The notes under the pieces: model-generated
What the model was told of the DNA's origin: nothing
The model's database searches: none
What the model saw: the letters and a program-made list of their open reading frames with translations, nothing else
In this document: piece by piece, positions 12,698 to 44,457 of the stretch
Numbering within the stretch: the first letter of the stretch is position 1
Layout of the letters: the number at the start of each line of letters is the position of its first letter
DNA from: Ruditapes philippinarum
Lineage: Eukaryota
Length of the DNA: 64,000 nt
Reading direction: 5' to 3'
Assembly (NCBI RefSeq): GCF_026571515.1
Contig: NW_026867237.1
Coordinates: forward strand, 124,001 to 188,000
Program-made: the position numbers and the translations under genes

Positions 12698-14059
12698 TTA
12701 CTTCTTCCAATCATAATAACTATCATCGTAGCCGTCGCCATGGTTGTCATCGTAGCCGTCGCCATGGTCATCGTCATAACTATTCCCATGACTGTTGCCA
12801 TAACCGCTGCCGCCGTGTTTGCCTTTGCCGCCTCCATGTTTTCCACCATAGTAGCCGCCACTATATCCTCCACCACCACCGAGACCACCGCCACTGAGAC
12901 CCCCGAAAAGAACTTGGATGATCAAAATGAACACAAACACTGTAAAAAAAAGATTTATATAGGTAAATATCTCAGAAATATGTCATACATTTTTACTGTC
13001 TATATTAATGCTAAGTCTGTACACAGAAACACGTGTCTTATGTACACAGAAACACGTGTCGTACACATTTATAAAGATACATTGCATACATTTTTAATCA
13101 AATTGCAAATATGAAAGTTTCTACTCAAGTGTTTTATAGATTAAATCATTTTCCGGTCAAGGTAGTTTTTATACATCATATTTATCTAGCGACTTGTTAG
13201 TTTCATAAAAGACAATGTAAACTAGTTATTTTACATGCCCTTTTTGCGAATAGAATTATTTTGAACATTTGTGATATCAGATCTAGTTATAGTCCATCAA
13301 TCAAAACGCGACAGATCAGATAGAAATAGCAATACATTTGACTGCTTTTTTACATTGATAATTAATGATGACAAAAAGTAAAGAAACGGAATCTTACAGA
13401 ATATAATCATCCCAAAGATTCCTCCGCCACCGAATCCACCGCCACTGCCCCCGCTGCTACCTGTCCACGGAGAGAGAAAAAACCCATCAGGTTAAACATT
13501 AATTGTTTGAAATGAAAGACTTTAATAGAAAATGGCATACTAGTATAAAACTTCAGAGCTTCAGTCATCACAAAGTCTTTTGATAACTTGAGTACATTCA
13601 CTTTAGAATATACAGATTTTGGCAATGGCTTTAAAATAATAGAAACACATTTAAACACTGTCCATAAACACCCAAAACACTGCAGTTATAAGAAGCCATA
13701 AATTCTCGTTTTTTTCTGAGTCAATTAACGTATGGAAACAAAATGTTAACTTACTTAAGATATTTTGATTTACTTAGCATTAAAACTAGACATGTTGGCT
13801 TACTTAGCATTAAATCTTAGTAATAATATCCTGAATATTCTTAAAAACGCAATGAAAATTTCAAAGTAAACGAAGGTCAAGTTAATAATATTTTTTAAAG
13901 ATGATAACAATAATAATCGCATTATCAATAATAAAGTGAAATAGTACCGTAATTTTGCATGCCATAGCCTCCGTATGTATATGGCATTTTGTACATGTTG
14001 CCTTGTACCAGCATTGCCACGCTGAACACGGTGACGAGTCCTACCAGGAACAACCTCAT
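12698..14059 (-). CDS. Gly-rich signal-peptide / hydrophobic-block protein, paralog A (138 aa); coding exons 14059-13948, 13460-13398, 12939-12698
   Basis: Spliced: MRLFLVGLVTVFSVAMLVQG-NMYKMPYTYGGYGMQNYGSSGGSGGGFGGGGIFGMIIFLFVFILIIQVLFGGLSGGGLGGGGGYSGGYYGGKHGGGKGKHGGSGYGNSHGNSYDDDHGDGYDDNHGDGYDDSYYDWKK*. GT-AG phase-1 introns at positions shared with the four other paralogs. Confidence 0.9.
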
Positions 14060-14247
14060 CTTGAATCTTCAACCGTCTAAAAATAAACAAAGATTCTTTT
14101 AATTAAACAAATATATCAAACATAAAAAAACGAAGATAAAATACTTAAATAAAATACGTTTTTCCTTCTAGTTATGTATCTATGTAAAACGAAATAAATG
14201 TATTTACTCTAACTATGCGGGAAGTGGTTTAAAAAAGATAGTTGAGT

Positions 14248-14275
14248 CTTATATATGGAGGGGACTTAACCGGAT
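14248..14275 (-). promoter_or_regulatory. TATA box and upstream GGA(A/T) motif, paralog A
   Basis: TATATAAG (14255-14248) about 30 nt upstream of a probable ~18-nt first exon ending at a GTAAAT donor (~14207); ccggat on the + strand at 14270-14275. Confidence 0.55.
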
Positions 14276-14931
14276 ATTCTAATAAAATTTCATATTTTCT
14301 TAGCACTTCCTGATTTTATCGGTAATTTATGTAAAACTATACGCCAGCTAATAAGTCATTTTTGTTACGGTATCTCTAACATGGACGAAAATATGAAATA
14401 AATACTAAAAAACATTCCTTTTAGAAACATATATTTGCCCCATGGGATTTTATTTCTCGTATGAAAAAACCTAAATATCCATCAATTTTGGGAAACCACA
14501 GCCGCAAAGATCTCTACAGGAATCTGAAATATAGAGTGAAATTACATATACAAGTGTATACTTTTTATGATTTTTAATGACATTTTTTACTTTATCGTTC
14601 ACCTGGTGAATTTCTTAGCTTCGATTTTTTTTCGAGACACTCCGTGATCCTAGTGAATTTCTTAAATGAAATTGCCCAGCTTCGATTTTTTTCGGGTCAC
14701 TCCGGCCGTGATCTATTTTGGAAATATGAATATATGAGCTTTAAAGTTGTTAAATCCAGGCAAGATTAAATGGATGTACAGACTAAGCTGCCTGTACATA
14801 CATGTATATTGCTGGCAAATGCTCGTCACTTTCTCTTTCAGCAGGGAAAGGGTTAAAAATCTTGAACTGCCAAACATATTGATAACAAAAGTTATAAAAT
14901 GTATAATTTTTCGATGATAAATTTTTATGTT

Positions 14932-15570
14932 TTAAAGGATCTCCACTCAGTTAAAAAGCTAAAATATTTTAATTCGTACACAGATCAGGATAAATGAAAA
15001 ATCTTCAAAGGATAATAGAGATATACTCAGAATTAAACTTAATTTATATCGAATTTATGTGCGATTCTCAGCCCGATGTGAGTGAAAGGTATTGTAACGC
15101 TTTTGTAGGTCATTTTACACAATAAAACGGATTATTCCAGAAAAAAACGGGGAAAGGTAATGATCTAAAACTTTGCACAGAAGCAATTTGACCCAGACCT
15201 ACATCAAATGGTACACAAATCTCGGAAAAATATTTTCAGTATAATTATGTCAAAAAAATCTCTGTTGAGATTAATTATGTTGAAGGGACTCTACTGAGGT
15301 TTTTTTGACATGATGGAACTAAATATATTTTTTCCAGATAATTGTACAATTTGATTTTGGTTAAGACCACTAATCTTTGTGCAAAATTTCAGATCATTCA
15401 CGCATTTCGTTTTTCCAGAATGATTATTCAAATTGTTAAAAAAAGGATTCAAAATGAAAAGCGTTTAAACACTTTTCACTCAAATCGGGCTAAGAAAAGC
15501 ATAAAAATACGATTTTCAATTTATTTCAAGGTAATTTTTTTAACTATCTTAATAACTTAGTATAAGTATC
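14932..15570. mobile_element. Degenerate fold-back MITE
   Basis: Inverted arms, e.g. ttctcagcccgatgtgagtgaaagg (~15065-15089) versus cttttcactcaaatcgggctaagaa (~15471-15495), and atgtcaaaaaa / ttttttgacat around the centre. Confidence 0.6.
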
Positions 15571-15939
15571 CAGTACTTAGCAATGGTTGTAACGTTTCTT
15601 ACTTACAGAAACGAAACAACTGGTTGTCCCTTGTTTGTTCACTTATTTTAAAGCAATAAATGAACCATTATCTATATAAGTTTAGACAGAATGTAATGAT
15701 AAAATATTCTTCCGTATATCATTTTGTGCATTTAACGCTACATTATTTGAATCGGTTAGACATAGCAAGTTGTATAATACTTCATGATGTGTAAATTGTT
15801 ATACTCAGAACAGAAAGTTTTATTTTGCTTATGGGTTAAAACAGAACTGATAAAAACGCGGAATGCCTAATGTTCATTAATGTACAATTCAAACAGGTAT
15901 ACACTGTACTCTTATATTCCAACTTGCTTCCGGAACGTC

Positions 15940-16040
15940 GGTGCCTTCGTGCCTGAAATAATGCACGAAGGTCGAGGTTTTCCTCCACCAGTAAAGCTGG
16001 AAAGTCTCCATATGACATTTACCTTAATTGGTGCAATCCC
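15940..16040 (+). mobile_element. SINE-like 3' fragment
   Basis: ttcctccaccagtaaagctggaaagtctccatatgac, related to accagtaaagctgaaaagtcaccatac at ~2877-2903. Confidence 0.5.
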
Positions 16041-18970
16041 CCAAAAGGAAACGTCAGATAACAAATTAAAGGTACATACGCATCTGTGTACTAACAGACT
16101 AATATATTTATCCTTATACTATTTGTTTTTAGACAGTATAAGATTGAAATACTCTGGTGTTACACTGGAACCTCTCTCAAAGAAACAATCATACTTTGTA
16201 TCATTCTTTTAAATATATTTTCAAGCTGAAGGCGCATTAATCCTTAGAAATATTTTTCTATACTGTAGAAATGGGAAAAATGTGTTTAAATTTTTTTTGT
16301 AAATGATTTTGACCATGTAAGATGCTAAAGAATTTTAAAAAATAGTGCTTAATGCAACATTGTCATAAAAGATAATTCAAAGATAATGTAAGCAAAGTGA
16401 TATTTTGACTTCCATACAAAATAATTAATCACTTAAACTGTACTGTATCACAAAAATGTATATAAATGAAATAATAAAAATAATAATTAATAAAAACGAA
16501 AAAGAAGCAAAAGATGGCTTAGTTATGTGACCAGTAAATAACGTTTTGGAAATTGTAACAGGACACCAATAAGAAAAGCTTTTATTAGATGAAATAACTT
16601 GCATTTTTGAGAATTTATGCGCCTGAAAAGAAAAAACTGAAAGAAAAATAGACAGAACTGATAAAAACGCACGGAATTCAAGCAGGTATACACTGTATTC
16701 TTATATTCCATCCTGCACACGGAACGTCGGTGCTTACATTATCATTATGACTATAATTAATTAAGTAATTAAGTAGGGGCTATAGCAATTTCTTTTGCAT
16801 GATTTGATTGTGGCTAATTTTTTGGTTCTGGCTCATAATTATCATATATTTTCATGATTTTCAAAATTAAAACATTTTTCAAGATCATAACTTTATTCTC
16901 TTTTATTATATAATAACAACAATAACAACATTTATTTAGCAATTAAACATAAGAACGCTTTTAGCCATAATATATCACTGCCATAAAGTGAAAATGGCAC
17001 GAAATGTCATGACATCCAATATTTTGGCATAGAGAAGTTTACACAATGGATAAAACGTTTTTAAGTAAGAAATTTAAATTGTAATGCAAATATAATTAAC
17101 TATTCCTTCATTTACATGTATTTGAAAAGAATATATATTTTGATAAATTAAACAGTTGACGTTCATTACCTGTGGACATCAGTCTCTCGAATTTATCAAA
17201 AGTTGGCCACCTACATAAATACGGTTTTAAATATTTTTCCTATTAATTTCTCGATATATTGGGCAGACAACAAGAAAATGATACACATCTTCAATCCAAT
17301 CAATTTATATAGTTGTTATCTTAAGATGATTAGCTAATGATATAGGCTGGTTGAAACTAATAAAAGATTATGTTTATGTTTTAGGAAATAGTTATTAATT
17401 GTGAGTGCATTGTTGTAGAATATAACACACTGTTCGAGTTAAATTGCATATTAGGAATAAAATCACAAAGGCCGATAGGTCTGAGTGATTAATTACAAAG
17501 CATATGAACGAAAAACCGTGTGGTATTAAACGAAAAAGTCATAATGTAATATTTGATTGCTCTATCCGCTTGTTTGAATTTTTGGCAAAGAACGTTTGCT
17601 CAGTCAACACTCATTCTGATATGTCGTCATATTTAAGTTTTCGGGACGAATGAATAGGCTTTGGAACTAATTTCATCAATTCCCTCTTTGTTGTTATACT
17701 TTTTTGTCAATTGTACACTTTTAATTCCCGCCGACCACATTTGGATGTTTGTTAGCATTATATATTCTAAGAATATATTAATATATTATTTACTTTTGTA
17801 AATTTGTTGGAAAGACATACTTGTATCACAATTCTTTAGTCTGGTCCATGTTAATGATTTTTGGGGGTTTATTTTTGTGTTGTTTTTTGTTTGTTTGTTT
17901 TGTTGTTTATTTTTAATTTTCCACCAGTGATAAAATGAAAATGTTTGACAATATTTCGAATCCTATTTGAATTTTCAATAGGACACGTGAAACAAAACGA
18001 CATAATCCGACAGTGATGCTGAAATGTGTATTTATTAAGTAAAAGAAAAAACAATAACAATTCAAAAAAGACGTTGGTCATGTCTTTTGAAATTGTGGCA
18101 ATCTCGTTTGTCGGTATCCGTTTGAAGTCGTTTATCCGTGCATTCAGCTCTGTGATTTCGTCCGCTGAAAAAGAAGATAGGAGCTACAGAATAAAAATTT
18201 GTAAATGATTCCAACACTGTGGAAATTTTAAAAAATCGGATGTACAAAGTTAATTAAAACAAAGAGAGAAAAAATTCTGGACACTTCACAAACTGAATTT
18301 AAATATTATTAATGATAGGAATTTAATGGATAACTGAATAATTGCTTTTTATGAGAATCTTTAAAACGTGAATACAGCAAGTTTAGGAGCGCTAAGTTAA
18401 TTCAAAACATTGAAAACAAGAAATATCTTTGAAACGATATTACATTGTGATAAATTTGGTTTAACAGTTGCTTGGCCATTTTTTAGTATTCTATTAAATT
18501 AATGCAGAAATAATACCATTGCTCAACAAGACCGCGATTACTTATTTAGTTTGCTCAATTGTTATTGAAGCATTCTTTTTTAAACAGGAAGATTGACTGC
18601 GTAAGGACCAACGTAGGGAACATATTGCTTTCGTGTTAGATACTTGCAAAACTAACAACAGTGTAACTTTTGAATTCCGGAACTTCTGAAATTCGGAAAC
18701 TTTTGAAATCCGAACAATTATTAGAGTTCCAAAATTTCTCCAGTTTTCTGTAGTAGAAATAGTTTATAGGACCTTGATAACACATGAAAATAATAAAACG
18801 TTTTTCTGTATAACTAAAACAGTTGTATTTGAAGCGATTAGTTTAGTAGATATTTCTATCATATCAAAGGAATTTAGCTATTTCAATCAGGCATAATTTG
18901 ATTTTTTTTTTTGATATTTTAAACCAATCTCAGTTTGACAATGGTATACTAACCTCAGTGTGTATCTCTA

Positions 18971-20542
18971 TCAATAATCATTATCGTGACTATGACTACT
19001 GTGGCTGCTGTGACTGCCGTGACCTCCACCTTTGTAATAGCCACTGCCACTATATCCCCCGTAACCTATGTTACCACCACCGATAGAACCGAAGCCTCCA
19101 CCCGAACCAAACAATACTCGGATGAATATAATGAATATAAATACTGAAATATAGGATAAACATTAAAACAACATGTGTGAGTTTCTGTATGTTATCACCA
19201 TAGTTACTGTGCTGATACCTGGGTTAACTCCTCGTTCTGATTTTCAACGGTGGATTGTCCTCTGAATCATTGAACAATGTCAACACGAAATGATGATTAT
19301 TAAAATTGAAAGCCATTAGTGTTTTTTTTCAATTACGTATGAATTGATGTAAATGGTGGTACAAAATAATTATATTATATACTATTGATTTTACAAACGA
19401 AAAATATTTCAGTGATATATATCTTTTTAGTTATATAGAGCAAATTTCCAACCTAGAACACAGTGGGAAATTATAATACTAACCCGTTTTATTTTAAGAT
19501 TTTTTTTGTTGAGGCTTTATGCATTCATTATTTTTTGTAGATCATTTATTATTAAAAAAGATATACGAAGGTTTGAATATGCAAGACTTTTAATCCTATT
19601 ACTTTTTGAACAACCATCGTATTAATGAAAACATTCCTTAGCAAGAGCTTTTTTATTTATTGTGTATTCTTGCCGCGCATTTTGTCCAAAAAGCTATTTG
19701 GTCCGCCACCCTAATAGTGATGAATCATTAGGAATAGGCTGTATACAATATGTATTTATTTGTAAAGAGCATTATGTTTAAATTACATTTTATTGATTGA
19801 ATATCGTAAAGTCTAGTAATATACTCACAGAATATTAGCATCCCAAATATTCCACTAAACCCGTAACCTCCTGATCCGGAGCTGAATCCATTGCCTACAC
19901 CGCCTGAAATAAATATATAAAAACATAACTGATACATATGACGAAGTTACGTTAAAAAAATTGGAACGTGGAAAGAACTTCTTTAGGTCTATTTATAACT
20001 TGTTTTAAAGATAAAATCAACCAATTAAATGTTCGCTTACATACTTTATCGACATGGTTTCATATCAGTAAACCTGTTCGGACTCAATAAATATTTCGAT
20101 GTGGTACATTCATTTTATCATTTTATCATTTTTATGGTGTGCCATCCAAATGCATATCAATTATTGTGAATTACAATATTTTCTTTTTGAATTTTACAAG
20201 TAGATTTATAAAAGAAAGAAGAAAAACAACTTATAAGCAGGATCGTTTGCACATATAATTATCATATTTCTTATGGGTACAACGACATTTTCAGCTGATA
20301 AAAAAAAAAAAAAAAAAAAAAAAAGCAAATAACTACAACCCAATCGCTCCAACATGAATACACGGGTTAAATGCCATTCGGAACACTTCGCCGATTATCC
20401 ATAATCCCTATCCGGACATTTTTATTTTCTAATAAGACTCACCGCCAGAATAGCCATAACTCATCGGCATCATCTTGTAATTGCCGGAAACCATCATGGC
20501 CCCACTAAGTATACAAACCAGCCCTATGAGCAGCAACTTCAT
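18971..20542 (-). CDS. Gly-rich signal-peptide / hydrophobic-block protein, paralog B (115 aa); coding exons 20542-20443, 19903-19829, 19143-18971
   Basis: MKLLLIGLVCILSGAMMVSG-NYKMMPMSYGYSGGGVGNGFSSGSGGYGFSGIFGMLIFLFIFIIFIRVLFGSGGGFGSIGGGNIGYGGYSGSGYYKGGGHGSHSSHSSHSHDNDY*; GTGAGT donors, phase 1. Confidence 0.9.
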
Positions 20543-21104
20543 TCTGAACGGTGTTCTGAAAAACAGTTCGATAATAACATAATGATTAAAAATACAATAT
20601 ATATGCGTAAGGTATCTTAAGAACAATGAAATCCAAACAAAGTCGGAGGAAACTGGCAAACTTCAATGAGTTTGAATGAAATGTGAATTTTCCAATCTCC
20701 AGAAACTGTTTCATTGTCTACAATATATTTTGATAGATGATAGTTTTCAACATAGTGGTTTGCGATAACAGATCTGAAATGATTAGAGCGTAACACATCT
20801 TTAATTGCTTAGCATCGTACTAAAATGCTTTTTAAATCATTTCGATCTTTTAATCTCCATTTCATATATTCTACTATAACTCATTCATAACAAATCCAGT
20901 AAATTATAGATTCATTGTTTACGAAATCTTCGGAAAAAAATTAAATCCGCTATTAAAAAAGAGTAAGTCAAATTAATCATTTTATCCGCTTCAGATGCAC
21001 AATTCAACAAAACGATCAGATTGTTTTCTAATGAAATTCTTAGACGCCTCTTTATAAGAAACACGAAACAATAGGTCTACTGTAGTGGTGGCAGTTTTAC
21101 TCAC

Positions 21105-22627: not shown

Positions 22628-25262
22628 ATCCAATTTTATAAATATTCGTCCTTTCTAATTCCAAAATAGTTTGCTTTGAATAGGTACGATAACATCAGAG
22701 TGTGCGTTTAATTTAAAATAAATATTTTATATCTTTCTTGGCAAATGATCAACACTATCTGCATTTGGAAGAACTACACTTTGCGAATATTCTCTTGTTT
22801 TGCTTTTGGTACTTAGATGGTTCTACATTGAAATTATGATTCCATTCCTGTCTGAATTGCAACTTGAAATTATTGTTTTTATTTGTCTTTAAAAGTTTCT
22901 TTTTATCTCTCTACCGTAACGTTTATAAGATAAATCTGTTCAATACTTATTTTCTATAACCAGTTTCTAGACTTTGTTTTTTAATGGTCCGTGCCAATCT
23001 TCTGTCTTGTTCAATCATTAAGTTGTTACATATTTTATTTCAGACCTTTTGCTAAACATAATTTACATACAAACTTTATCATGCACACAACACACTAATG
23101 AGAAAAGGATCATATCCAACAGCAAAAAGTGCTTATAAATGTCTCTCCCTGGCATATTTTGGACATTTGTTTCTATTTGAAAATCACTTGAAAGATTATG
23201 TAGGGGCATTTTGTTTATTTGTCATTCAATTGTTATATGTATAAATATCATCATTCCTTATCAAAGTTTACAATTTCCAGTAGTTGATTTGCTCCCCTTT
23301 GGTTCTGAGACTTCAATCAAACCAAATATTTAACATTTTCAAAATAGCCGTATACGATAACAATTTTTACTTTTTTAATGCCATAGGAACATCGCACTGT
23401 ACTCCAAAATGCCTACTTACGACATGCATTTTCTTTAATCATAGAAATATTAATAAAATCGCAACCAATATTAATAAAATTTCATCAACAAACGTTACAA
23501 TGCTTTGGTTTGAATGCCTTTTTATACATCATTTACGCATCAAATTTGCTCTATACAAACATAACCCAAAGACGCACTAAACGCAAAACGTGCGAATCAA
23601 AAAGAAATCATTTGTGTTTAAAATGTAAACAGTTCTTTAGATATGTGATTAACAGAATATTATATTCGTGTAGGTTCAATGCTGAATTTATTACTCGTTG
23701 AATAAAAATTATGCTTGTCAGGGAGGATCGCACAATATAATTTTATTCAAGTGTTTCAATAAATTGAGTTCTGAACCTACCTACACTCATTCAACAACCT
23801 TTATTTATATAGCACGACAGACGCAAATAAAATCCAAATGATGGTGGGAAATTTAGAGAGTATCGGACATCAACATATCGAATACAAGACACAATCGAAC
23901 TAAAATAGATTCTGTATAAACCAACTTACCGAATGCAAGGGCGACAAGAAAAGTAAATCAATTAACAATTTTGTATTCTGATTGAGCTAAATGTGTACAC
24001 AACATTATCTCCCGTTTCACAACATTATTATTACAAAATTAATTATATCAACCCTATCCCCTAAATGTTATCATACTAGTTGCTGACGGGATATTTGGGA
24101 ATATATATCAAAGTAATTCAAATATGAAGTCATTATAGCGTTGTAAGTTTTAACATTTTTATGAAGTACTTACATTTGAATTGAGAAATCTGCCATATAG
24201 AATAAAACGCTATAGTAGATTTTATGCACATATTTGATAACCGGCCTACGATGTACAAATGCATTGTTATTTGTGTGCTCTCGGTTAAATAATGTAAACG
24301 GCATCGTATAAAAAGATTTTAAGCCAATCATAATTCGAGAAATGTGTTTTGCATTATTATGAAACCTATAACATTCGATTCAGTTTTTCTATAATGTCAA
24401 TAACTTGATAAAGAAAAAATCATTAAAGACTTGTCAGACTTGTCAGAATACAGAACATTCCAGCAGAGATTTGGAACCAGAAAAGAAACAAACTACATGA
24501 CAAAGACAAAAAGTAGATTGAGAGTTAGAGTGACCAAATAATGGACACAAAGGAAAGAGAAATCGGAAAACAGGAAAAAAGGGAAACAGCCAAAAAGAAT
24601 GGTAAATGTGTTTCTTTACCCTCAATAATAATAAGTTAAATAATGGTAATAATAACATATATAACATTAATAAATATAACATTTCTCTTGCTGTCTGAGA
24701 AGTTTGTTCAACAACTTAAAATATATTAAAGGATGCAAAGGAAAAAATGACAACACGTTGTAAAGATGCAACAGATTTAATAAATAGAAAGAACAACATT
24801 AAAACAACTACTCGTCATCTCTTTGTTGTGGCAGTCTCGATAGTCGAATTTTCTTCGTATATCCTAAACCATGGTATTTACTGCTTTACGCATAGTTCTG
24901 AAATAATACAAACATAATATTTTTTATATTAATCAATTATGTCTTAAACAAATAAATAACACTATGCAATGAAAGCAATTGTATATACTTTTTTATTATG
25001 TTCATAATGAAAATGTTATCACTAAATTAGATTAAACTTAATTCTGTTTTATTTATTACCCTCCGTGTGAAAATAAAAAAGTTCTTTCAATAAGTTATAA
25101 GAATAATAGATCTTCAAAATTGTGCATTTGCTTTCCACTAAGACGTTGACCTACTTTTCGTAAGATCGCATGAAAAGAATAAGCAGTTAAAGAAACGTTA
25201 TTGAACACAAAATATGTGAAGATTTTTCATCGGACGAAATAATAGGACTATCGTGTTACCAT

Positions 25263-26409
25263 TTAATAAGCGCCGCCGCCGCCGCCTTTATATCTCCCTC
25301 CACCACCACCGCCTATGCCGCCGCCCCCAATACCCCCAAGTCCTCCTGAACCAAACAGGATTTGTATAAAGAAGATGAATATGAATACTGGAATGGAAAA
25401 ATGATTGATGAATTGAACAAAGTTTTAGTATATATTATTGTTTATATCATATATGTCCAATAAAACTTAAAATAAATATCCCCCATGGCTAAATATAAAA
25501 TATTGATATTAATTAGAGAGGGAATGGCATAGCTTATTAATTAATAATAAATGAATTAAAATAAAGTATTATCAGTAACTTTAAAGTAAATAATTTTTAT
25601 AGATGCAGGTATTTCCTGAACTGAAGTCTGACTAACACGATGCTTTTGGCTTTGAACTTGGTTACTTATTATCTTTCGCACAGCATAGAATTTACCTTAT
25701 CTCTCATTATGTTTGATTTCAGCAAACTGTGTATTACCGGGTATTCAAATATTATATTTAATTGGGTTAAATTAAAAACTTACAAAAGATTATCATTTCA
25801 AAAAGACCGCCAAAAGATCCTGATCCTGATCCGCCCGAGCCTCCGAATCCACCGATACCGCCAAAACTGCTGCCACCACCACCCATACCTAAAAAGAAGA
25901 GTAGGGTAAATAATATGTTTTCATAATTCATTGAATCCCAATGGTCCTCTTACTCTTCTGTTTCATATCAGTTTACATACATGTAGGTTGTGAATAATTG
26001 TAAAGAATATTAAAAGAGATATACTCTTATTAAGATATAGTCATATGCTTTTATTTGCAAGTCGATAGAGAGAACAAAAAACAAAGCAATGATAAATGAT
26101 TGAATTAATATGATGAACCAATTAAAACTCATTAGTCGTCAGAATTAATTGAAACAATTTCCTCAGCAAAACGTTAGGAAAGGACAAACGTAATCAAAAT
26201 ATCCTAAATTATTGATTAAAACTGTCCTCCTGAAATCGGTATTTCAAGATTATATTATGGTTGCTATTGCAACACAAGATTTTCTTACTTGCATGAGAAA
26301 ACAAAATACACATACCGTAACCATAGGACATTGGCATCTTGTAATAATTGCCGGAGACCATCATGGCCACACTCAATACCACAACCGCTCCGATCAACAC
26401 CAACTTCAT
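25263..26409 (-). CDS. Gly-rich signal-peptide / hydrophobic-block protein, paralog C (107 aa); coding exons 26409-26316, 25888-25784, 25387-25263
   Basis: MKLVLIGAVVVLSVAMMVSG-NYYKMPMSYGYGMGGGGSSFGGIGGFGGSGGSGSGSFGGLFEMIIFLFIFIFFIQILFGSGGLGGIGGGGIGGGGGGRYKGGGGGAY*; canonical splice sites, phase 1. Confidence 0.9.
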
Positions 26410-32430: not shown

Positions 32431-33730
32431 TAATACAAAAATAATGATAATAAAACTGAATGTATTACAAAATAAATATTTTATGGCCACTTACAAGCTC
32501 AATAGTTGGTTTCATAAGGTCTTACATAGATCGAATTATTGACAAAACCTTACACTTTATATGATTTGGCCTTCAAACATGTTTGGACCTCTCCTTTTAC
32601 GGTCATTTCTTTATTCATAGTTTCACTATTTGTACATGCTCTGCACTTTTGGCATAATTGAATAGTACTCACGGCAAAATGTACTCTTGAAAATATTAAA
32701 TAAATTGTACATGTCATTAAACTGGGTCACTTGAAATTGCATTGTTTATAAACGGGTTTGATGTTTTTATTTTTGCAATAATAACAAACATTTTCTTAAT
32801 GCAGGAATGTATTTACAAAAATAATATAAAAGAATAACATCAAATAACAAGCAATTATAACAATATATTCATTATTCGTTGTTATGGCAATCGTGGAAGT
32901 CGGTTGTTTCTTTGGGGTCCGTTTAGAAGAGGAAATCACGTGGGGCAATGATTCTAAAAACAAGAAAAATATAGTTTGTAAAGCGCAATTTAAAATATTA
33001 CAACACATTTAAAAAACTGAAAGCCGTACAACAATTCTAACCAAATAATGTACATGTTAAACAGCTTAGTTTTTTTATTTTATTTCGGTTTTATAACTTT
33101 ATTTACAAGTGAATAGTTATATAACAATCGTTTCTGAATTAGATAACATGTTTATCAAGTTTATTTCGCCATATTCTTATACTCTATTCATCATATGTCG
33201 GTCAAAAGCTATACATAGCTTATGTTTTGTGAAATGTTATATATATATATATAGGTATAAATATACTACTTCATTTATATCCATTGTAGCAACCATTACA
33301 GTTGTAGTGAATTACTATTTTGTATGGAAGTAAAACTATCACTTTGTTTACACATTTTGATGCCTTTGTCACAAGTCACAAGTAATTTCACATTTCACCT
33401 TCAGGTGATAAGCATTTTACTAATTCAAAACCTATCATTACAACATAATTAAACACGAATTTCATCTTTCAGAAGAAAGATATATTTATTATTTATTCAT
33501 TTCGGAGGCGTAATATGCCTTTAAAAATACCATATCAGAAGCAAAGTAAGTAGTTCAAGATGATTTCAAAGCAAACTTAGTATGATTAAGAAGAAACTTG
33601 ATATTTCTTTTTTAGAATGTTCTTGATTGAGAACTAATTTTAAACACTTAATTCCTTTGTATGCATTTAAGTAATATTTTAACGATTCAAATAAAATCTT
33701 CAAACAATGGAAATACTGTACCTTAAAAGA

Positions 33731-34937
33731 TTAATAATCGTTATCGTGGCTGTCAGTGCTGTAGCTGTTTCCGCCGCCTTTATGACCACCACCATGACCA
33801 CCATGTCCTCCACCTTTTCGATACCCGCCGTAGCCTCCCCCTCCGCCTCCGCCTCGACCCCCTATTCCTCCTATTCCCCCACCTCCACCGGCTCCGAACA
33901 ATAATTGAATCAACAGTATAAACACGAACACTAAAATACAACAAAAATATAATGATATAGCATTAAGAATATGTTAACGTTTATTAGTGCGTATTTACAA
34001 AATTTATAAATTGGTCAGTACTAATCTATTTTAACCGGCTTAGTGTTTTAGATTATTTTTATGAACAGCCGATTTAAAAGACTGATTAACAGTTTGCCGA
34101 TTTACCAAAGTAAATGTGATACGATTTATTTGAAAAACTGTAATCCTATTGGACAAACAATAATTTCAAACACTAAAAATGACATGATGAATGTAAGTAT
34201 TGCGTAATGATTCAAAGATAAGTAATAGAAAAGTAATCATAACAATTGTACTAAAGATTTTAATTATCATATTTATTTGAAATAAAACATTTATGATATG
34301 TTATAATAAATCAGTTTACTAGCAGAAAATATTTGCATTTTTTATAAATAAAAAAGAACTTACAAAATATGATCATTTCAAATAGTCCTCCAAATCCACT
34401 TGCTGAAAATCAAATTTAGTCATTTTTAAGAAATATCTAGAAAAATGTGTAATTTTAAGAAATATCTGTAAAGTATACAAAACGGTATAAACACGTGTCA
34501 ATAAAAATGCTGAAGAATTTATGTTGTAAAACACTTAAATCCAATAAAATATTATGACAAGCCATTAATTAAATGAGCCGCGTCACGACAAAACCAACAT
34601 AATGGGCATCCGCGCAGTCTGATCAGGATCCATTCTGTTCGCTATCAGTTTCTCTACTTGTCATAGGGTTTGTAAGCGAACAGCATGGATCCTGATCAGA
34701 CTGCGCGGATGCGCAGGCTGGTCTTGATCCATGCTGGTCGCAAACGCATTACGTTGGTTTTGTCGTGACCCGGCTCAAAAGAAACTTACAGCCTCCTTGT
34801 CTACCACCGCCGACTTGTCCCCCACCATAACCATATGACGGCATTTGCATCTTCATGTTTGGCATTTTGTACATGTTAGCGGATGCCATCATGGCCACAC
34901 TGAAGAGTGTCACTGCCCCAAGTATATATATCCTCAT
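33731..34937 (-). CDS. Gly-rich signal-peptide / hydrophobic-block protein, paralog D (128 aa); coding exons 34937-34790, 34402-34364, 33930-33731
   Basis: MRIYILGAVTLFSVAMMASA-NMYKMPNMKMQMPSYGYGGGQVGGGRQGGSSGFGGLFEMIIFLFVFILLIQLLFGAGGGGGIGGIGGRGGGGGGGYGGYRKGGGHGGHGGGHKGGGNSYSTDSHDNDY*; GTAAGT donors; 39-nt middle exon. Confidence 0.9.
34573..34777. mobile_element. Palindromic MITE, copy 2 (in an intron of paralog D)
   Basis: atgagccgcgtcacgacaaaaccaac ... gttggttttgtcgtgacccggctca, with a deletion in the left arm. Confidence 0.85.
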
Positions 34938-35216: not shown

Positions 35217-36204
35217 AGGCATGCTTAATTTACAAAAAAAATAATACATGGTAGCTAAGTTCACATAAAACTGTAAAACTGTCTAAAGTTTTCTGAATAT
35301 AGACACATTATTACACCTTGAGCACTTTGCAACAATCCCTTCAGTACCCACATCGCTGAACAGTCTGGTTCTGAAATACCACATGGTCTGGTTCTGAAAT
35401 ACCACATGACCATACATTAAATGTAACCTCGAGAAATCCATGCTTATCAAGCAATAAATTTCAGAACACGACGCCGTTATTCATTTCTACATGCTGTTAT
35501 ATGCTTAGGTTTGCAGATATAGATGTTATAAGATTCAATTTAAAGAAGTAACTTACTTTTTTACGTTGCATAGTTCATTGGTGGTTGCAAGTAGTTCAGT
35601 TGTCACATCGACATATGGAAAGTTCGTATTGATTTTTATTCATTCATATATTTATATTTTTTTATAAATTATTGAAGCATAGTTTTCACTTTAATTATAC
35701 GAATAACAAAGCAACTGCAACTCCGGACGTGTATTCGATTTAAACATTCTGATATGATTATACAATGACGCCATTTATTGCAGACAAATGACATGAATTT
35801 AAGAATACGCTTTCTGATATAGATTACCATTTGTTAATAAATTGTAAATGAGCTATCAAGCCAAGAGGGATATACTGGTTCTGATATTTATAGTATTTGT
35901 ATCTTATACAGAAAAATACGTTACTGTAACTTCAAGCTCCAGATCTAGATTCTCTAGAAATTTTGCACTGGATGCATACAGTTGTGTACCTGGTGGTGTC
36001 GTCTTTAATAAGGACAAGATATTTTAACAGGATTTTATGGTCAACAAGAAACATGTATTAGTGTTTTTATATGCCAGTGAATAGACACAATAAACTGTAA
36101 TGGTTTACTGATAATCAAAATAAATTTATTAAAATTGGACACCCTGAAGAACTTTCAATTCCAATTTCAATTTTGTGATTTTTTTTGGATTTTATTCTTT
36201 ATAA

Positions 36205-36258: not shown

Positions 36259-36259
<1 letters not shown>

Positions 36260-37812: not shown

Positions 37813-38773
37813 TTTGTGTCGCCTCTACGGAGTAGTGGCGACATATAGGGATCACTTCTCCGTCGTCTATCTGTCCGTCTGTCCGTCTGTCTGTATGTCT
37901 GTCCGTCTGTCTGTCCGTCCGTCACAAAACTTGTCCGGACTACTCCTCATAAACTACTGGTGCAATTTCATCCAAACTTTACAGGAATAATCAGTGCCAA
38001 TGCTAGTTGGGCATATTGTCAGCATTTTTTGGTTCAATGATTTTTGTCAGAGTTATGGCCCTTTGATAATTTTAAATTTTAAAGTTTGTCCGGACTACTT
38101 CTCTTATACCACTAATGCAATTTCAATGAAACTTTACAGGATTGATCTGTAGCTCAAGTCCTTGCGCAAAGTGCACGGGTTTTCCGGTTGAATGATTTTT
38201 GGCCGAGTTATGGCCCTTTGATAAAAAGGTTTCATTTTCTGTATGTTGCCAGATACACAAAAGCTTGTCCGGACTACTCCTCATAAACTACTGGTGCAAT
38301 TTCATCCAAACTTTACAGGAATGATCAGTACCAAGTGTAGTTGTGCATATTGTCAGCATTTTCCAGTTCAATGATTTTTGTCAGAGTTATGGCCCTTCAA
38401 TAAATTTTATTATTAAAGTTTGTCGGACTACTTCTCTTATACAACTAATGCAATTTCAATGAAACTTTACAGGATTGATCTGTAGCTCAAGTCCTTGCGC
38501 ATATTGCACGGGTTTTCCGGTTGAATGATTTTTGGCCAAGTTATGGCCCTTTGATAAAAAGGTGTTTTTTTCTGTGTGTTGCCAGATACACAAAAGCTTG
38601 TCCAGACTACTCCTCATAAACTAATGGTGCAATTTTATCCAAACTTTACAGGGATGATCAGTACCAAGTCTAGTTGAGCACTGTCCGTCTGTCTGTCCGT
38701 CTGTCACAAAATTTGTCCCAACATGAAATTGGCCATCATGAGGCGACACATGTGATTACTGATCGCTCTTGTC
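37813..38773. mobile_element. HINE-type element with alternating internal repeats
   Basis: subTIR tgtcgcctc (~37817) and gaggcgaca (~38740), GTCC/GTCT microsatellite ~37860-37923, repeated ttgtccggactact..aaactttacagga units. Confidence 0.85.
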
Positions 38774-39139
38774 AATCATTTAAAAGCACTGTGTCCAGAT
38801 CTTTTTAGCTGTTAGTTTTGTATTGTAGCATCATATAAGTAATATAATTCAGTGAACATTTTATATGTACTTCTAGATTTATTGTAGATTATGTAGACAA
38901 TGGTGTAAGTTTAGTGTATTGAACATCTTTGTAGCCTAAGTTTACTTAATGAAATGAAAACTTGGATTGTTCAATATTTTGAAGCAGTTTCAGCTAGAAG
39001 TAACACTTTTATTGGTAGTAAAATTTTATAGTTTCAGCATCGAAGACAATCAGCTTGGAAGAGAAATGTGTATGATGTTAGTGTCAACCAGTTACCAATA
39101 GAAGCAAACACAGTAGTAAGTCCCTTTTCCTTCCAATTA

Positions 39140-39385
39140 TTTTTAGCGGGACTATTCGATAAGAATAAGTAGAGCTATTGTAGTCACCCAAGCGTCGGCG
39201 TCGGCGTAACCACTTATGTTAAAGTTTTGGAATACCTCAAATATTTTCAAAGTTCATTGACATATGGCTTTGAAACTTTGCACACTTCTTCAGCACCATG
39301 ACCCCAACCAGTAGAAAGGAGGAGGTAATTGTATTAATTATTTTGACAGAAGTATGCCATTTTTCATCTTAGAATTTCGACTTTC
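39140..39385. mobile_element. Truncated HINE-type element head
   Basis: tttttagcgggactattcg...agagctattg followed by (GCGTCG)n. Confidence 0.55.
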
Positions 39386-39744
39386 AAGCCTAAACATAGA
39401 AAGCTACAAAAAAAAAACAATTACAGAACAGTACATACTTTGAGGGGTTCAGTGCAGCCTAGTTTTACATATAAATTTAATGTTACCTGTATGCTTACTT
39501 CAATTTTACTTTTTTTGCCTAGCGTTCAGGCCGCCATTTTATGAACCAATTGTACGATTTTGGTCACGTGATAATCCGCAGTGTTATTTACATACTAGTA
39601 GTTTATTATTAACTATTTATTTGGTATGTTACTAAATATTTTAGGAAAAGAGTCAACAGCCTAACAGATGAAGATTGTGTCCCAACAGAAGAAACAACAC
39701 TATCACCAGCCTTAACAGGTGTGCTTGAATTTTTTTTGAATTAT

Positions 39745-41125
39745 TATACACACGAAACGAAGTTTTGGGGGTAGGGTTATGTTTGCATTTTAATTGTACG
39801 GAGCATAACTTGAAGACTAATGGTTGGATTTCAATACAACTTCATACAATGATCAAGCACATAAAGAGGAAGTGCAGTGTACATGAACCGTAACTCCATC
39901 TTGAATAATTACAGAGTTATTGCCCTTTCTTACTTTTCCTTGTCCGAAGCATAAATTGAAAACTACTAATTTGAATTAAAAACAATTCCATACAATGGTC
40001 AAGCACAATAAGTGGAAGTGCAGTGCACAATAACCATAACTCTTTCCAGAGTAGTTATCTTGTTATTGCCCTTTGTTACTTTTCCATTGCTTTTTCTTGT
40101 CCAGAGCATAACTTAAAAACAACTAGTTGGAATTCAATACAACTTCATACAATGGTCAATTACATTGGGAGAAAATGCAGTACACAGTAACTATAACTCA
40201 ATCTTGACTAATCACAGAGTTTTTCCATTTGATACTTTTTCTTCTTCAGTGCATAACTTGAAAACTAATGGTTTGAATTCAATGCAACTTCATACAATGT
40301 CAGGCACAATAAGAGGAAGTGCAGTGCACGAGAACCATAACTCTATCCAGAGTATTAATAAAGTGGTTGCCCTTTGTTACTTTTCCTTGTTGGAAAACAT
40401 AACATGAAATCTACTGGTTGGAATTCAATACAATTCATACAATTGTCAATTATATTGAGAGTAAGCGGAGTGTACAGAAACCACAACTATTTCTTGACTC
40501 ATTTAAGATAGTCTGCTCTTTGTAACTTTTTATTGTCCAGTGCATAATTTGAAAATTAATGGTTGGAATTCAATGAAACTTCATACAATGGTCAAGCGCC
40601 GTAAGCTGAAGTGCTGTGCACAACAACCATAACTCTATTTGGACTAATTATATAGTTATTGCCCTTTGTTACTTTTTTGTCCAGTGCATAGCTTGAAAAC
40701 TAGTAGTTGGAACTCTATTCAACTTCATACAATGAGAAGAAGTACAGTGTACAATAACCATGACTACAAATTCAGTATTTTCAGAATTATTGCCCTTTGT
40801 TCCTTTCCCTTGTGCGGTGCATAACTTAAATACTTATATTTGGAATACATTGCAACTTCAAACAATGGTCAAACATACTGAGAAGAAGTGCAGTGTTCAA
40901 GATGTGTAACTCTTTCTGGACTTATTACATAGAAATGCAATAAAGCTTCATCAATGGTCAACCACATTGAAAGGAAATTCAATGTATTAGAATCACAACT
41001 AGATCAAATTGCCCACAACCATAACTCAAGTTCAATTATTTTACAAGGTTTTCTGTTTCTAGTAACTTCCTTATTTCCGAAGCAGTCTAACGGGGGTATT
41101 TATCACATTAAGTTATAGTTATAGT
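39745..41125. mobile_element. Older HINE-type element with ~147-bp tandem array
   Basis: About 9 diverged units carrying aacttcatacaatggtcaa and gttattgccctttgttact; ends ttatacacacg.. and ..cgggggtat. Confidence 0.75.
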
Positions 41126-41264
41126 TTATTTTAAATTAAGTTTGAGAAGTACTGATTGATGAAAAAATATCCCTGATGCGCCAAGAAAATGTCCATTTCT
41201 CCGGCATTTAATCTTTCAAAATATTAAATGTAAAACAAACTTTCAAAATTCCATTTTAAATAGA

Positions 41265-41580
41265 TCCGCCCATTGTTTTCTCGTTTTTATACAGTACGTG
41301 GGGACCATATTCCGCTTTTCATGGAATGGTACTTATGTGTCCACATTGAAGGTTCCATGAAACCGCCATATCAACACATCTGCAGATGTTTCAAAATTCA
41401 AAATTGTACCATTTCTTGTTAAATTTTAAATTCTGTTCAAGCCGAAGCTAGGGGCGTGGACAGTACTTTGCACTTGACAGTACCGTCCATTAACAGGCTC
41501 AATCAAACCGAGCCTGCAACATTTTCGAATTTGTCGAGTTGGGCTTTCTTTAGGGATTCTTATTTTCTCTATTTCATTAT
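41265..41580. repeat. Dispersed repeat, copy of 28440-28780
   Basis: Colinear similarity (ccgcccattg..., acagtaccgtccat...ctcaatcaaaccgagcc.gcaacattttc). Confidence 0.75.
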
Positions 41581-43057
41581 GATACTAAATAAAAAATTAA
41601 AAAAATAAAATAAATTCTTTTTTGTTAAATAATTGTAATTTATAAACTTTTTTTTTCATTCGAAAAAACGCTATAACTATGATGTAGAGCCTAAGCGTCA
41701 GCAAAATACTGGTACATTAAAGAGAGATATTCCTTGTGTTGTTATAATTTGGCTATTGGAGACGAATACCATTTATTTTGCATATGTTATTTCTACGATG
41801 TAATAAAAACTCACATTGCTATTATAGACATTCTTCAATATACAAATTTATCCAGCTGTTCACCCCCCCCCCCCAAAAAAAATAAAAAGAATTTGTAGCC
41901 TATACGTTTATGAATCTCTCACTTAGGTAGGTATACGCTTTCTACATTGGTGATTATGTTCATTCTCCAAACATTTTTGTTTCCATACCAAAGAAGTACT
42001 ACTTTTAAATAGTCTTATTTGTATATGTATTACAATTTAATCTATATAATTATTGTACAATTGCCATGAAACAATTAAAAATGTGAAAAGAAAGGAAACA
42101 GTTGATGAAAGACAAATACATAAAACAATAAAGGATGAGGATGCTTATGTTTATTTATGTTTGAGACGAAACTTAGCGATTTTCTTTGATAGAAAACAAA
42201 CTCTGTTTCTAATGCTGAAGGTATATATATATATATATCACATGCAACTGTAAGTTAACAAACAGATTGTGACATCGTGTTTGCAATCTCCCAGTTGCAG
42301 CACAGTCTGTGGTAGATCGTCATCATACGGAAGTCGGTATATCAGAACCATATCTAAAATCAGAATAGAAAGCTTTAAAAAAGTGATTGGTTGAAGATGT
42401 TAAACTAGTAACATTCATTGAATGGATAAAAATATTTAAAAATAAGATATTCAAATAGTCTACATGATTCGTATTACACGACAAAAATTGAAGATATTAC
42501 AGGCTTGGTGTAACTGCATTTTTTCAAGTACAACAAAGGTAAATGATGATTGCCCTACATGATCCTTAGCAGCGACTCTAGCAGAATTTAAACTCAATAT
42601 TTAAATATGTAAATTGTGTATAATTTAAAATGCACAAAAGGAAATGTTTGAGTTAATCACAAATACATGTATATTATTTCTTTCCATTATTTACATGTGA
42701 CTTCAATCAAAGATTATCAACACTTCTAACTTTCTTATCTCTCATTCATTATAATATCTGATATAGTTATTGTTAAAAAATTAAATGTTTACTTTATTAT
42801 ACATGTAATTATCTTAAAGGTAACTGATGGTGATGAATATTAATATCACTTTTGATATTTCTATTAAACATCATAGAATAATATTCGAGGATATTGAATG
42901 ACTGTAGGTTTACTACAAAATTTATTCAACGAGTTCAATACATTTATGTATTTCAATAACTTTAGTATTAAACCCAAACCAACACTCATTCAATATTCAC
43001 CCTTTATTACACTCTGTGCCATGGTTAATGTGATAAAAGTAAGTTTTACCTCGGAGG

Positions 43058-44457
43058 TTAATAAGAATTATCATGGCTGTCATGATCGCCATAGCCACTG
43101 CTGCTGCCATAGCCACTGCCACCATGTTTACTATATCCGCCATATCCGCCTCCGCCTCGACCTCCAAGACCACCTCCAGCACCAAACAATACTTGGATAA
43201 GGAGGATGAACACAAACACTGAAACAAATTGAATAGAAAATAATAATTATAACATTTAATAATTTAATCGTTTTTGAAACTGATCTAAACTTTGAAAAGG
43301 GGTGATCCTCCTTCGAGGGAAACGAAGACAGAACTAAAAAGATGATAATTACAGGCAAGGTTTCAGTCTAAAACTGCTTATAAAAAAAACGAAGACTTTT
43401 TTCAGTTTTGCATTACATTTTGCTAAGCTATATTTTGTGGAGTTCGTTAATATTAGTGCAGAATACACTAAATGTGGAGCTACATAAGTAAAGTTAAGTA
43501 AATAAATGAAAATATTGACAAAAAACATTGTTACTCACAGTAGATTATGATTTCAAATATACCACCGCCAAATCCAGAGGCTGCAATAGAAGGACAAGAT
43601 CGAGATAATTTAACTTAATGTATAGTATCTAAAAAGATAAAAATCAGATGTGATAACAAAATGTTTATTATGTATAGATTATTTACATCTTTTATGTGCT
43701 ATTCATGTAGAGAATTTGAAAGTTTATTGATTAAAATTATCCCCTTAATTCAAACATTATCGATCTTTGTAATTTTTTATTTAAGAATAAATACATTAAT
43801 TGTATATTCAAAATTTTCAATTGGTATTCCTCAGTTCCAGTAGAAATAAACATTAGTATATTGTAACACAAAATACTGAATAGTGATTAACAAAAATATA
43901 TACACATGTGTTTCTGTCATAAATTGTTCCTTTCACTGAATGATGCATGATTAAGATTAAAGACAATGGCTAGATTTCTTAGTTTTTCTAAAATAAAATT
44001 ACATAAAATTAAAACCTTAAAGAAAATTAAAATTGTTGCAGGTTCTGTTCATGGACTTAGACTACCGTCTATGCCCCTTTCTCTGGCATGAAGAACTTAG
44101 TTGTGGAATTGACGTGAAACTTAGAATTTAGAATGTCCATTAAAAATAATGTGTTCATTTCGCAGCTAACACGGAGAATTTGATGCTTCACCATGCCATT
44201 CAATGACAAGCGGCGTAAGCATTGACCCCCAAGTAAAAGAATGTGTGTAACCTAAGCAAGAAAATAAAGGCCGAAACTTAATAAAACATAATTTTCAGAA
44301 GGGATCAGAAGTAAAAAAACTTACAGTTATTGTTGTTTGTCATATGTCCACCATATCCATATGCCATTGGCATCTTCATGTTATGCATATACATGTTGCC
44401 TGAGACCAACATGGCCGCACTGAAGAGTGTGACTGCTCCAAGTAAAAACAATTTCAT
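43058..44457 (-). CDS. Gly-rich signal-peptide / hydrophobic-block protein, paralog E (111 aa); coding exons 44457-44325, 43580-43539, 43218-43058
   Basis: MKLFLLGAVTLFSAAMLVSG-NMYMHNMKMPMAYGYGGHMTNNNNSSGFGGGIFEIIIYLFVFILLIQVLFGAGGGLGGRGGGGYGGYSKHGGSGYGSSSGYGDHDSHDNSY*; not present in the ORF track in the correct frame. Confidence 0.9.

What the first reader, a model, noticed from the sequence alone, without database searches (positions are those of the whole stretch)
12905..43560. The hydrophobic block is the most conserved part and is split by the same intron: TM anchor or self-assembly core?
Seen: GIFGMIIFLFVFILIIQVLFG (A), GIFGMLIFLFIFIIFIRVLFG (B), GLFEMIIFLFIFIFFIQILFG (C), GLFEMIIFLFVFILLIQLLFG (D), GIFEIIIYLFVFILLIQVLFG (E). 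There are no indels, Phe positions are fixed, a polar Q/R sits at one fixed position, and the central Leu codon is split by a phase-1 intron in all five. Flanks vary freely in length. Position-specific conservation is more than a passive anchor needs, and no Lys/Arg cluster follows the block. Inference: either a type I membrane microprotein that oligomerises through its helix (placing the His/Asp tail in the cytosol), or a secreted tri-block amphiphile whose core drives coacervation, beta-assembly or lipid binding.
Basis: partly seen in the sequence, partly recalled or inferred. Interest (0 to 1): 0.7.

Follow-up and report, generated by a model that had tools for sequence, protein, structure and literature searches.

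The report
Clam glycine-rich single-helix membrane microproteins
Five neighbouring spliced clam genes encode small glycine- and tyrosine-rich proteins built around a 21-residue water-repelling stretch that is almost unchanged in a zebra mussel gene active mainly in the shell-forming mantle; the stretch is likely a membrane-spanning helix that packs against partner helices, and the proteins likely help build the shell's hardened organic skin.

Summary
Five minus-strand genes (A-E) each encode signal peptide, Gly/Tyr arm, 21-residue hydrophobic block, Gly/Tyr/Lys arm. A phase-1 intron splits Leu9 of the block; transcript-like contigs confirm the splicing. Four more paralogs lie elsewhere in this Manila-clam-like genome. 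In nine genes 11 of 21 block columns are invariant while synonymous sites are saturated (pN/pS 0.13; signal peptide 0.41-0.45). A zebra mussel protein (DPMN_127817, supplement of PMC9210306) keeps all 11, has Asn for Gln17, is annotated signal peptide plus one transmembrane segment, and is mantle-specific among three tissues. Substitutions recur with a helical period (105-112 degrees), not a strand period, leaving one variable but still apolar face. Best reading (0.5): type I membrane microproteins whose helices pack through a fixed face and whose Tyr-rich arms are tanned into a mantle-edge organic layer. Main rival (0.27): fully secreted assembly core; a look-alike gene group with lumen-type tail signatures supports it. 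The His/Asp tail is not general. Oligomer state, topology and site of deposition are untested. No Pfam family, no description found.

The parts
13948..14059 (-). Gene A coding exon 1: predicted signal peptide and Tyr/Gly arm
   Evidence: joint 13460/13948 in X1, X2
13398..13460 (-). Gene A coding exon 2: Gly linker and block residues 1-8 plus first base of Leu9 (block part 13398-13422)
12676..12939 (-). Gene A exon 3: block residues 9-21 (12902-12939), Gly/Tyr/His/Asp arm, stop ending 12698, donor 22 nt after the stop
20443..20542 (-). Gene B coding exon 1
19829..19903 (-). Gene B coding exon 2 (block part 19829-19853)
18954..19143 (-). Gene B exon 3 (block part 19106-19143, Arg at position 17; stop ends 18971; donor 17 nt later)
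26316..26409 (-). Gene C coding exon 1
25784..25888 (-). Gene C coding exon 2 (block part 25784-25808)
25260..25387 (-). Gene C exon 3 (block part 25350-25387; short arm without His or Asp; stop ends 25263; donor 3 nt later)
   Evidence: same short end in P0001
34790..34937 (-). Gene D coding exon 1
34364..34402 (-). Gene D coding exon 2 (block part 34364-34388)
   Evidence: 39-letter gap in contig record 15 of X3
33722..33930 (-). Gene D exon 3 (block part 33893-33930; stop ends 33731; donor 9 nt later, joint to 32953)
44325..44457 (-). Gene E coding exon 1
43539..43580 (-). Gene E coding exon 2 (block part 43539-43563)
   Evidence: 42-letter gap in contigs of X2 and X3
43050..43218 (-). Gene E exon 3 (block part 43181-43218; stop ends 43058; donor 8 nt later)

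Best explanation
These are spliced paralogous genes for 85-138-residue Gly/Tyr-rich proteins whose invariant-length 21-residue block is likely a single membrane-spanning helix that would pack through one fixed face against partner helices, so that the proteins likely form a membrane-held scaffold which is probably cross-linked into the organic layer made by the mantle edge. Steps: (1) shown: genes, splicing, strong purifying selection on the block, free length change in the arms; (2) shown for the zebra mussel counterpart only: mantle-specific expression; (3) inferred: signal cleavage after about residue 20 and stop-transfer at the block, N arm outside, C arm inside; (4) inferred: positions 4, 8, 11, 14/15, 18 face lipid, while 5/12/19, 6/13/20, 9/16 and 3/10/17 form a wide interface with the Gln/Asn17 amide, fitting a bundle of more than two helices, homo- or hetero-oligomeric among paralogs; (5) inferred and weakest: Tyr in the arms is oxidised by peroxidase or tyrosinase, the outer arm at the cell surface and the inner arm only if the membrane is shed (vesicles, microvillar tips), fixing the bundles into periostracum or a related mantle cuticle.
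For: Best 19-residue window has mean Kyte-Doolittle 2.5-3.1 and raw insertion sum -1.8 to -4.7 kcal/mol (scale values recalled, unweighted), no Pro and no Gly/Ala/Ser in the 12-residue core. The zebra mussel counterpart is annotated SignalP 1-20 and one transmembrane segment, out to in, 63-82; expression mantle 717.6, gill 1.6, foot 0.4, tau 0.9986. 11 of 21 columns invariant in nine paralogs at pS 0.86, pN 0.11; A and I are 21/21 identical in protein but 12/21 at third positions. A model with hydrophobic exchanges at 0.3 of neutral or more reached the observed 9 of 17 invariant apolar columns in 0 of 150 runs at matched synonymous divergence. Variability peaks at 105-112 degrees; permutation p 0.009, 0.014-0.047, below 0.001 to 0.071 in six variants; strand period p 0.18-0.98. 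The variable face stays apolar. All four zebra mussel substitutions fall on already variable columns (chance 0.035). Lys/Arg within 25 residues: C side 9 of 9, N side 2 of 9; no glycosylation sequon in any of 9 C arms. Polar Asn/Gln can drive helix association (PMC1190194, passages). A GGGYGGY(x)K motif resembling published tanning substrates (PMC6007483 section 27) is in 4 of 9 C arms.
Against: No topology, oligomer or localisation data. The tanning-like motif lies in the arm that this topology puts in the cytosol, which needs the extra shedding step. A look-alike gene group with the same exon plan has C tails with a sequon in 11 of 11 distinct tails and terminal Gly or Gly-Arg in 10 of 11, signs of a lumenal C end; its kinship is not shown by block sequence (core-shuffle p 0.05-0.90). 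The periodicity rests on 16-21 columns, windows chosen after seeing the data, and an unresolved tree (0 of 6 branches starred); over all 21 columns with the mussel added p is 0.071; three of the four mussel substitutions lie on the conserved face. Gene B has Arg at 17. A rate ratio near 0.1 is not rare for ordinary conserved proteins (own knowledge). Mantle expression is from one counterpart in another species; tissues of the clam runs are unknown. Block motifs were not found in the supplements of four shell-proteome papers (small or partial files). No tyrosinase or peroxidase exon among 94 neighbouring frames scanned.
Confidence: 0.5

Rival explanations
1. Fully secreted tri-block matrix protein: both arms are extracellular and the block is a self-assembly or lipid-binding core (helical bundle in lipid droplets or lamellae, or a beta zipper) that condenses the precursor before tanning.
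For: Both arms carry Gly-flanked Tyr (2-11 GY/YG per protein) and 4 of 9 C arms a tanning-like motif. Look-alike group has lumen-type C tails. Mantle-specific counterpart. Phe at 8, 10, 12 alternates; block is 53-68% Ile/Val/Phe/Tyr.
Against: An 18-19 residue apolar stretch this strong behind a signal peptide is expected to stop translocation (established Sec61 behaviour); published annotation of the counterpart calls it transmembrane. No strand period in variability or in aromatic spacing (p 0.41). No sequon in A-I C arms. Kinship of the look-alike group unproven.
Confidence: 0.27
2. Type I membrane microprotein whose conserved face binds a partner membrane protein of the mantle (pump, transporter, chitin synthase or oxidase), in the manner of single-helix regulators; the arms are flexible tethers, not material.
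For: Helical conserved face and an amide near the cytosolic end fit a partner site equally well. One counterpart found in the zebra mussel lists, at moderate level (717 against over 4000 for some listed matrix-type genes).
Against: Nine or more diverged paralogs with 57-76% Gly+Tyr+Ser arms is the pattern of structural mantle proteins; no shared trafficking or binding motif in the tails; no partner gene linked.
Confidence: 0.15
3. Passive anchor; similarity comes from recent duplication or gene conversion.
For: Tandem array; low-complexity, apolar sequence has few allowed residues.
Against: Synonymous sites saturated (pS 0.81-0.86); conservation extends to another bivalve order; drift model fails.
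Confidence: 0.05

Closest known systems
Dreissena polymorpha DPMN_127817 (hypothetical protein, supplement of PMC9210306)
   Same: Signal peptide, Tyr/Gly arm, same 21-residue block (17 of 21 with gene A, all 11 invariant columns kept, amide at 17), Gly/Tyr/Lys arm; clearly the same family.
   Different: Uncharacterised table row; not among the six shematrin-like IDs of that paper; intron position and synteny not checked.
Shematrins and KRMPs of Pinctada; shematrin-like proteins of Dreissena
   Same: Small or medium secretory-pathway mantle proteins with GnY repeats, often ending in Tyr; likely cross-linking substrates.
   Different: No RKKKY/RKYKY-type C-terminal signature, no Lys-Trp domain, 7-12 kDa mature, several members acidic or neutral, and a conserved internal hydrophobic block.
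Gly/Tyr-rich peroxidase-substrate candidates of the snail mantle belt (Lstag-sfc-6 to -8; Cepaea Gly-rich 2, 3)
   Same: Gly-flanked Tyr and GGGYGGY(x)K-like motifs; mantle-edge expression of the analogues.
   Different: Described as secreted; no hydrophobic or transmembrane block is mentioned in the passages read; sequences not compared.
Single-helix oligomers with a buried amide (phospholamban type; model Asn/Gln helices)
   Same: Ile/Leu/Phe helix, heptad-like conserved face, amide near one end. Works-like comparison only; phospholamban details recalled.
   Different: Those are tail-anchored without signal peptide or Gly/Tyr arms; no sequence match (PDB profile search best E 0.056, unrelated).
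Sea urchin P16
   Same: Small biomineral-tissue protein essential for spicule growth; recalled as single-pass and in a small gene cluster.
   Different: Recalled to have its acidic region outside the cell; no evidence of homology; not compared.

Membership tests
Shematrin | Signal peptide plus Gly/Tyr (GnY) repeats | tested here: met
   Arms 23-59% Gly, 8-16% Tyr; signal peptide by inspection, SignalP on the mussel counterpart
Shematrin | C-terminal RKKKY/RRKKY-type signature (PMC3896809 section 16) | tested here: not met
   C termini of 9 of 9 lack it
Shematrin | Basic protein of about 25-33 kDa | tested here: not met
   7-12 kDa, pI 5.2-9.4 against the table
Shematrin | Present in the prismatic shell matrix | not testable with these tools
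   No proteome of this species was readable
KRMP | Lys-Trp-rich domain right after the signal peptide | tested here: not met
   N arms hold 0-3 Lys/Arg
Type I single-pass membrane protein | Cleavable signal peptide followed by a 17-21 residue apolar segment | tested here: met
   Hydropathy in 9 of 9; published annotation of counterpart. No SignalP or TMHMM run here.
Type I single-pass membrane protein | Basic cluster right after the helix | tested here: inconclusive
   No adjacent cluster; first Lys/Arg at +4 to +25, but C-side bias in 9 of 9
Type I single-pass membrane protein | C terminus in the cytosol | not testable with these tools
   Needs protease protection or reporter
Self-associating transmembrane helix | Conserved helical face with polar amide | tested here: met
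   Period 105-112 degrees, position 17 about 120 degrees from the variable face; modest significance
Self-associating transmembrane helix | Oligomer shown or predicted | not tested
   The block is split by an intron, and no tool returned a full-length protein to fold
Beta-assembly (amyloid-like) core | Two-residue period in conservation or side-chain type | tested here: not met
   p 0.18-0.98
Oleosin-type hairpin anchor | Long apolar stretch with central Pro knot or turn (recalled) | tested here: not met
   18-19 residues, no Pro, no Gly in the core
Any Pfam family | Profile match | tested here: not met
   0 of 11 exon pieces at curated cut-off; pieces only, the block was never whole in a query

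The most novel reading that the evidence does not exclude
A clam-lineage class of membrane-templated scleroproteins: helices polymerise side by side in the bilayer of secretory vesicles or microvilli into a lattice, the membrane is shed, and both Tyr-rich faces are tanned, giving the roughly 25 nm pellicle that starts the periostracum; paralogs, and at a look-alike locus four mutually exclusive block exons, tune the lattice.
Probability: 0.2. Interest if true: 0.8.

Novelty: new variant of a known kind. Interest (0 to 1): 0.52.

Why it matters
Gly/Tyr-rich mantle proteins are common, but they are treated as soluble secreted precursors that cannot be aligned between lineages. This family has an alignable, strongly selected core shared between a venerid-type clam and the zebra mussel, and that core looks like a membrane helix. 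One published screen for such proteins removed anything with a predicted transmembrane segment (PMC4944945), so the class can be missed by design. It offers a concrete, short, synthesisable handle on an open question: how the first sheet of periostracum is organised at the cell surface before tanning.

Tried and rejected
Protein homologue searches: exon 3 of A (0 hits), exon 1 alignment among longer proteins (0), nine-exon-3 alignment (1 hit at E 1.5, which is gene C exon 3 read from an environmental record), full HMMER scan of 1.84 billion representatives (0 at E 0.001). All queries were single exons holding half the block at most, so the blanks are weak; the mussel counterpart was missed by all of them. 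Atlas search gave no answer. Pfam and PDB: nothing meaningful. Metagenome scans: 595 pattern hits, none confirmed; 3 junction-pattern hits, all unrelated. No intronless copy: 3 genome hits to the junction pattern against 2 for the control, none Gly-rich. Of 19 hits to an exon 3 pattern, 16 were chance (control 20). No RNA holder is on record as RNA; two raw RNA runs (4-6% read) gave about one read depth or less over A-C exons, which is no evidence on tissue. Paper full-text search for six block and tail motifs: 0 papers; eight topic searches showed no description of the family. The Manila clam shell proteome paper (PubMed 21221694) is not held. No structure or complex prediction was run, because only half-block pieces were available. 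Rejected: gene conversion, beta period, shematrin or KRMP membership, His/Asp tail as a defining part, truncation artefact in C.
Full report
1. What is there. The window is AT-rich animal DNA (32% GC), G000:C15724:124001-188000 in a 1.41 Gb genome. A lysozyme exon of this genome is 56 of 60 identical to PDB 2DQA, which I recall as the Manila clam enzyme, so the host is Ruditapes philippinarum or very near it. Five genes, A-E, lie on the minus strand, each with three coding exons joined in phase 1. Products are 138, 115, 107, 128 and 111 residues: an apolar N-terminal 20 residues (signal peptide by inspection), a Met/Tyr/Gly arm of 30-38, the 21-residue block, and a Gly/Tyr/Lys arm of 28-67. 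Contigs of RNA-like runs from three studies carry the predicted joints: directly listed for A, B and C in 2 of 4 runs laid, and as exon 1 plus exon 3 pieces separated by exactly the exon 2 length for D and E. All five also have a splice donor 3-22 nt after the stop and a non-coding last exon. The two raw RNA runs laid gave almost no depth on A-C; tissues are unknown.

2. More members. Searches of the genome and of 19 fetched stretches found F, G, H on the same contig at 241-257 kb, beyond an ATR kinase gene, and I on C13196. These four lack the first coding intron but keep the block intron. A copy of H on C15256 is 93% identical over 2 kb, an allele or recent duplicate, and was left out of the counts. 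Genome searches score only best candidates, so nine is a lower bound. Splicing of F-I was not tested.

3. Is the conservation special? In nine genes 11 of 21 columns are invariant (G1, F3, I7, L9, F10, F12, I13, I16, L19, F20, G21), with pS 0.86 and pN 0.11 (ratio 0.13; 0.17 for A-E), against 0.41-0.45 for the signal peptide of the same genes. A and I share all 21 residues but only 12 of 21 third positions, which excludes recent duplication or conversion. A codon simulation that forbids polar residues but lets Ile/Leu/Val/Phe/Met exchange needed those exchanges cut to about 0.05-0.1 of neutral to give 9 invariant of 17 apolar columns; at 0.3 or more, 0 of 150 runs did so at matched synonymous divergence. 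Caveat: a ratio near 0.1 is ordinary for conserved proteins in general; what stands out is fixed Ile against Leu against Phe in a protein whose other parts drift freely.

4. An outside test. Searching the supplement of the zebra mussel genome paper (PMC9210306; main-text passages; supplement file 3, cut when stored) gave one clear counterpart, DPMN_127817, a hypothetical protein with the same four-part plan. By eye its block differs from A at four columns (5, 6, 14 and Gln17 to Asn) and keeps all 11 invariant ones; the chance that four changes all avoid them is 0.035. Its row gives foot 0.42, gill 1.58, mantle 717.6, tau 0.9986, SignalP 1-20, and one transmembrane segment 63-82, outside to inside. 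The mantle sample was the margin, which in that species includes the fused siphons. It is not one of the paper's six shematrin-like IDs. Only tissue-specific and differentially expressed lists were searchable, so further mussel paralogs may exist.

5. Helix or strand, membrane or not. The best 19-residue window averages 2.5-3.1 on Kyte-Doolittle and sums to -1.8 to -4.7 kcal/mol on a biological insertion scale (values recalled, no position weights). Behind a cleaved signal peptide such a stretch normally stops translocation, giving N out and C in. Lys/Arg are not adjacent (first at +4 to +25) but lie on the C side within 25 residues in 9 of 9 and on the N side in 2 of 9; no C arm has a glycosylation sequon. 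Column variability peaks at 105-112 degrees per residue. Permutation p was 0.009 by entropy, 0.047 and 0.014 by tree-counted changes over columns 1-21 and 2-20, 0.020 for A-E alone, and below 0.001 to 0.071 in six further variants with and without the mussel. The strand period was never significant (0.18-0.98). Variable columns 4, 8, 11, 14, 15, 18 form one face that remains apolar apart from position 4 at the edge, as expected of a lipid-facing side; four of seven heptad classes are nearly fixed, a wider interface than a dimer needs, and position 17 lies about 120 degrees from the variable face. Asn/Gln in membrane helices can drive association (PMC1190194, passages). Limits: few columns, windows chosen after the fact, unresolved tree, three of four mussel changes on the conserved side, Arg17 in B. 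A conserved face does not tell self-association from binding a partner.

6. Evidence for the secreted rival. Two weak genome hits (E about 0.5) led to a look-alike group on contigs C487, C1305, C8905, C10222 and C14591: signal peptide, Gly/Tyr arm ending in Phe, phase-1 intron splitting Leu in 13 of 13 distinct models, a 15-17 residue apolar run, a short tail, and often a donor just after the stop. Several are near-identical copies. Their tails are Ser/Thr-rich, have an N-x-S/T sequon in 11 of 11 distinct tails (chance per tail 0.35-0.76, tails related), mostly at the same place, lack Lys/Arg in 7 of 11, and end in Gly or Gly-Arg in 10 of 11, which resembles an amidation signal (recalled). These point to a lumenal C end. 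Kinship with A-I rests on exon plan and composition: profile-profile probability 96% without a shuffled control, but block-core shuffles give p 0.05-0.90. I put kinship at about 0.6; if true, it shows that such a block need not leave its tail in the cytosol. Their splicing was not tested.

7. What it likely does. Arms are 57-76% Gly+Tyr+Ser with Gly-flanked Tyr; 4 of 9 C arms hold GGGYGGY(x)K, close to the tanning-substrate motifs cited for snail mantle-belt proteins (PMC6007483 section 27; PMC7894901 passages). The His/Asp tail is present in A, B, D, E, H only, so metal or mineral binding by the tail cannot be the family's common role. With mantle-margin expression of the counterpart, the simplest role is in the organic layer made at the mantle edge. 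In Neotrigonia the periostracum starts as a pellicle about 25 nm thick from the basal cell and is thickened by vesicular and microvillar secretion (PMC3934977 passages); a membrane-held, self-packing, tannable protein would fit there, but this link is inference only.

8. Known or new. No Pfam family, solved structure or database homologue was found with single-exon queries, and these missed even the mussel counterpart, so they say little. It works like shematrin/KRMP-type Gly/Tyr mantle proteins but fails their C-terminal signatures (PMC3896809 section 16) and size. Nine literature searches showed no description; supplement searches of PMC8217771, PMC13425148, PMC5105077 and PMC6641155 showed no block motif; PMC11592408 and PMC2614417 were seen as passages only. 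Subscription papers, including the Manila clam shell proteome of 2011, figure-only sequences and bioRxiv supplements were not visible and could hold a name for a member. The screen in PMC4944945 dropped proteins with predicted transmembrane segments.

9. Verdict. Observation confirmed; first reading partly supported. Best explanation 0.5, secreted core 0.27, partner-binding helix 0.15, passive anchor 0.05. New variant of a known kind; interest 0.52.

Noticed in passing
G000:C487:289224-291300 (L027, L078 1-1330): One signal-peptide exon is followed by four tandem phase-1 exons, each with its own hydrophobic block, tail, stop and downstream donor-like site, then a likely shared 3' untranslated exon: looks like mutually exclusive exon choice. 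Splicing untested.
   Followed up: partly
G000:C1305, C8905, C10222, C14591 (L083-L103): Look-alike gene group with shorter block, sequon-bearing Ser/Thr tail and terminal Gly or Gly-Arg; several identical copies, some in inverted orientation, may be haplotigs or recent duplicates.
   Followed up: partly
window 12676, 18954, 25260, 33722, 43050: All five genes have an intron 3-22 nt after the stop codon, too close to trigger nonsense-mediated decay by the recalled 50-55 nt rule; candidate donors 5-32 nt after the stop in F-I.
   Followed up: yes
L022 5166-5290 (G000:C13196 about 115.2 kb): The acceptor and first codons of gene I's block exon are tandemly repeated four times (34 nt unit); only the last copy gives the open block.
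   Followed up: partly
window 57000-64000 onward to G000:C15724 about 234 kb: ATR kinase exons (+ strand) separate genes A-E from F-H; TMEM214, acid-sensing channel and C1q exons lie upstream of the window.
   Followed up: partly
window 49297-52897 and 53248-56231: Two decayed LINE-type reverse transcriptase elements in opposite orientation (read by eye).
   Followed up: no
window 34570-34775: High-copy short inverted-repeat element inside intron 1 of gene D; related copies in introns of F and I.
   Followed up: no
window 35310-35400: Upstream of gene D a short acceptor-like sequence is duplicated and followed by an ATG-led short frame; possibly a 5' exon or a remnant.
   Followed up: no
PMC9210306 supplement, DPMN_174769: Another strongly mantle-specific zebra mussel microprotein, Met/Gly-rich, annotated with one transmembrane segment; unrelated in sequence by eye.
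   Followed up: no
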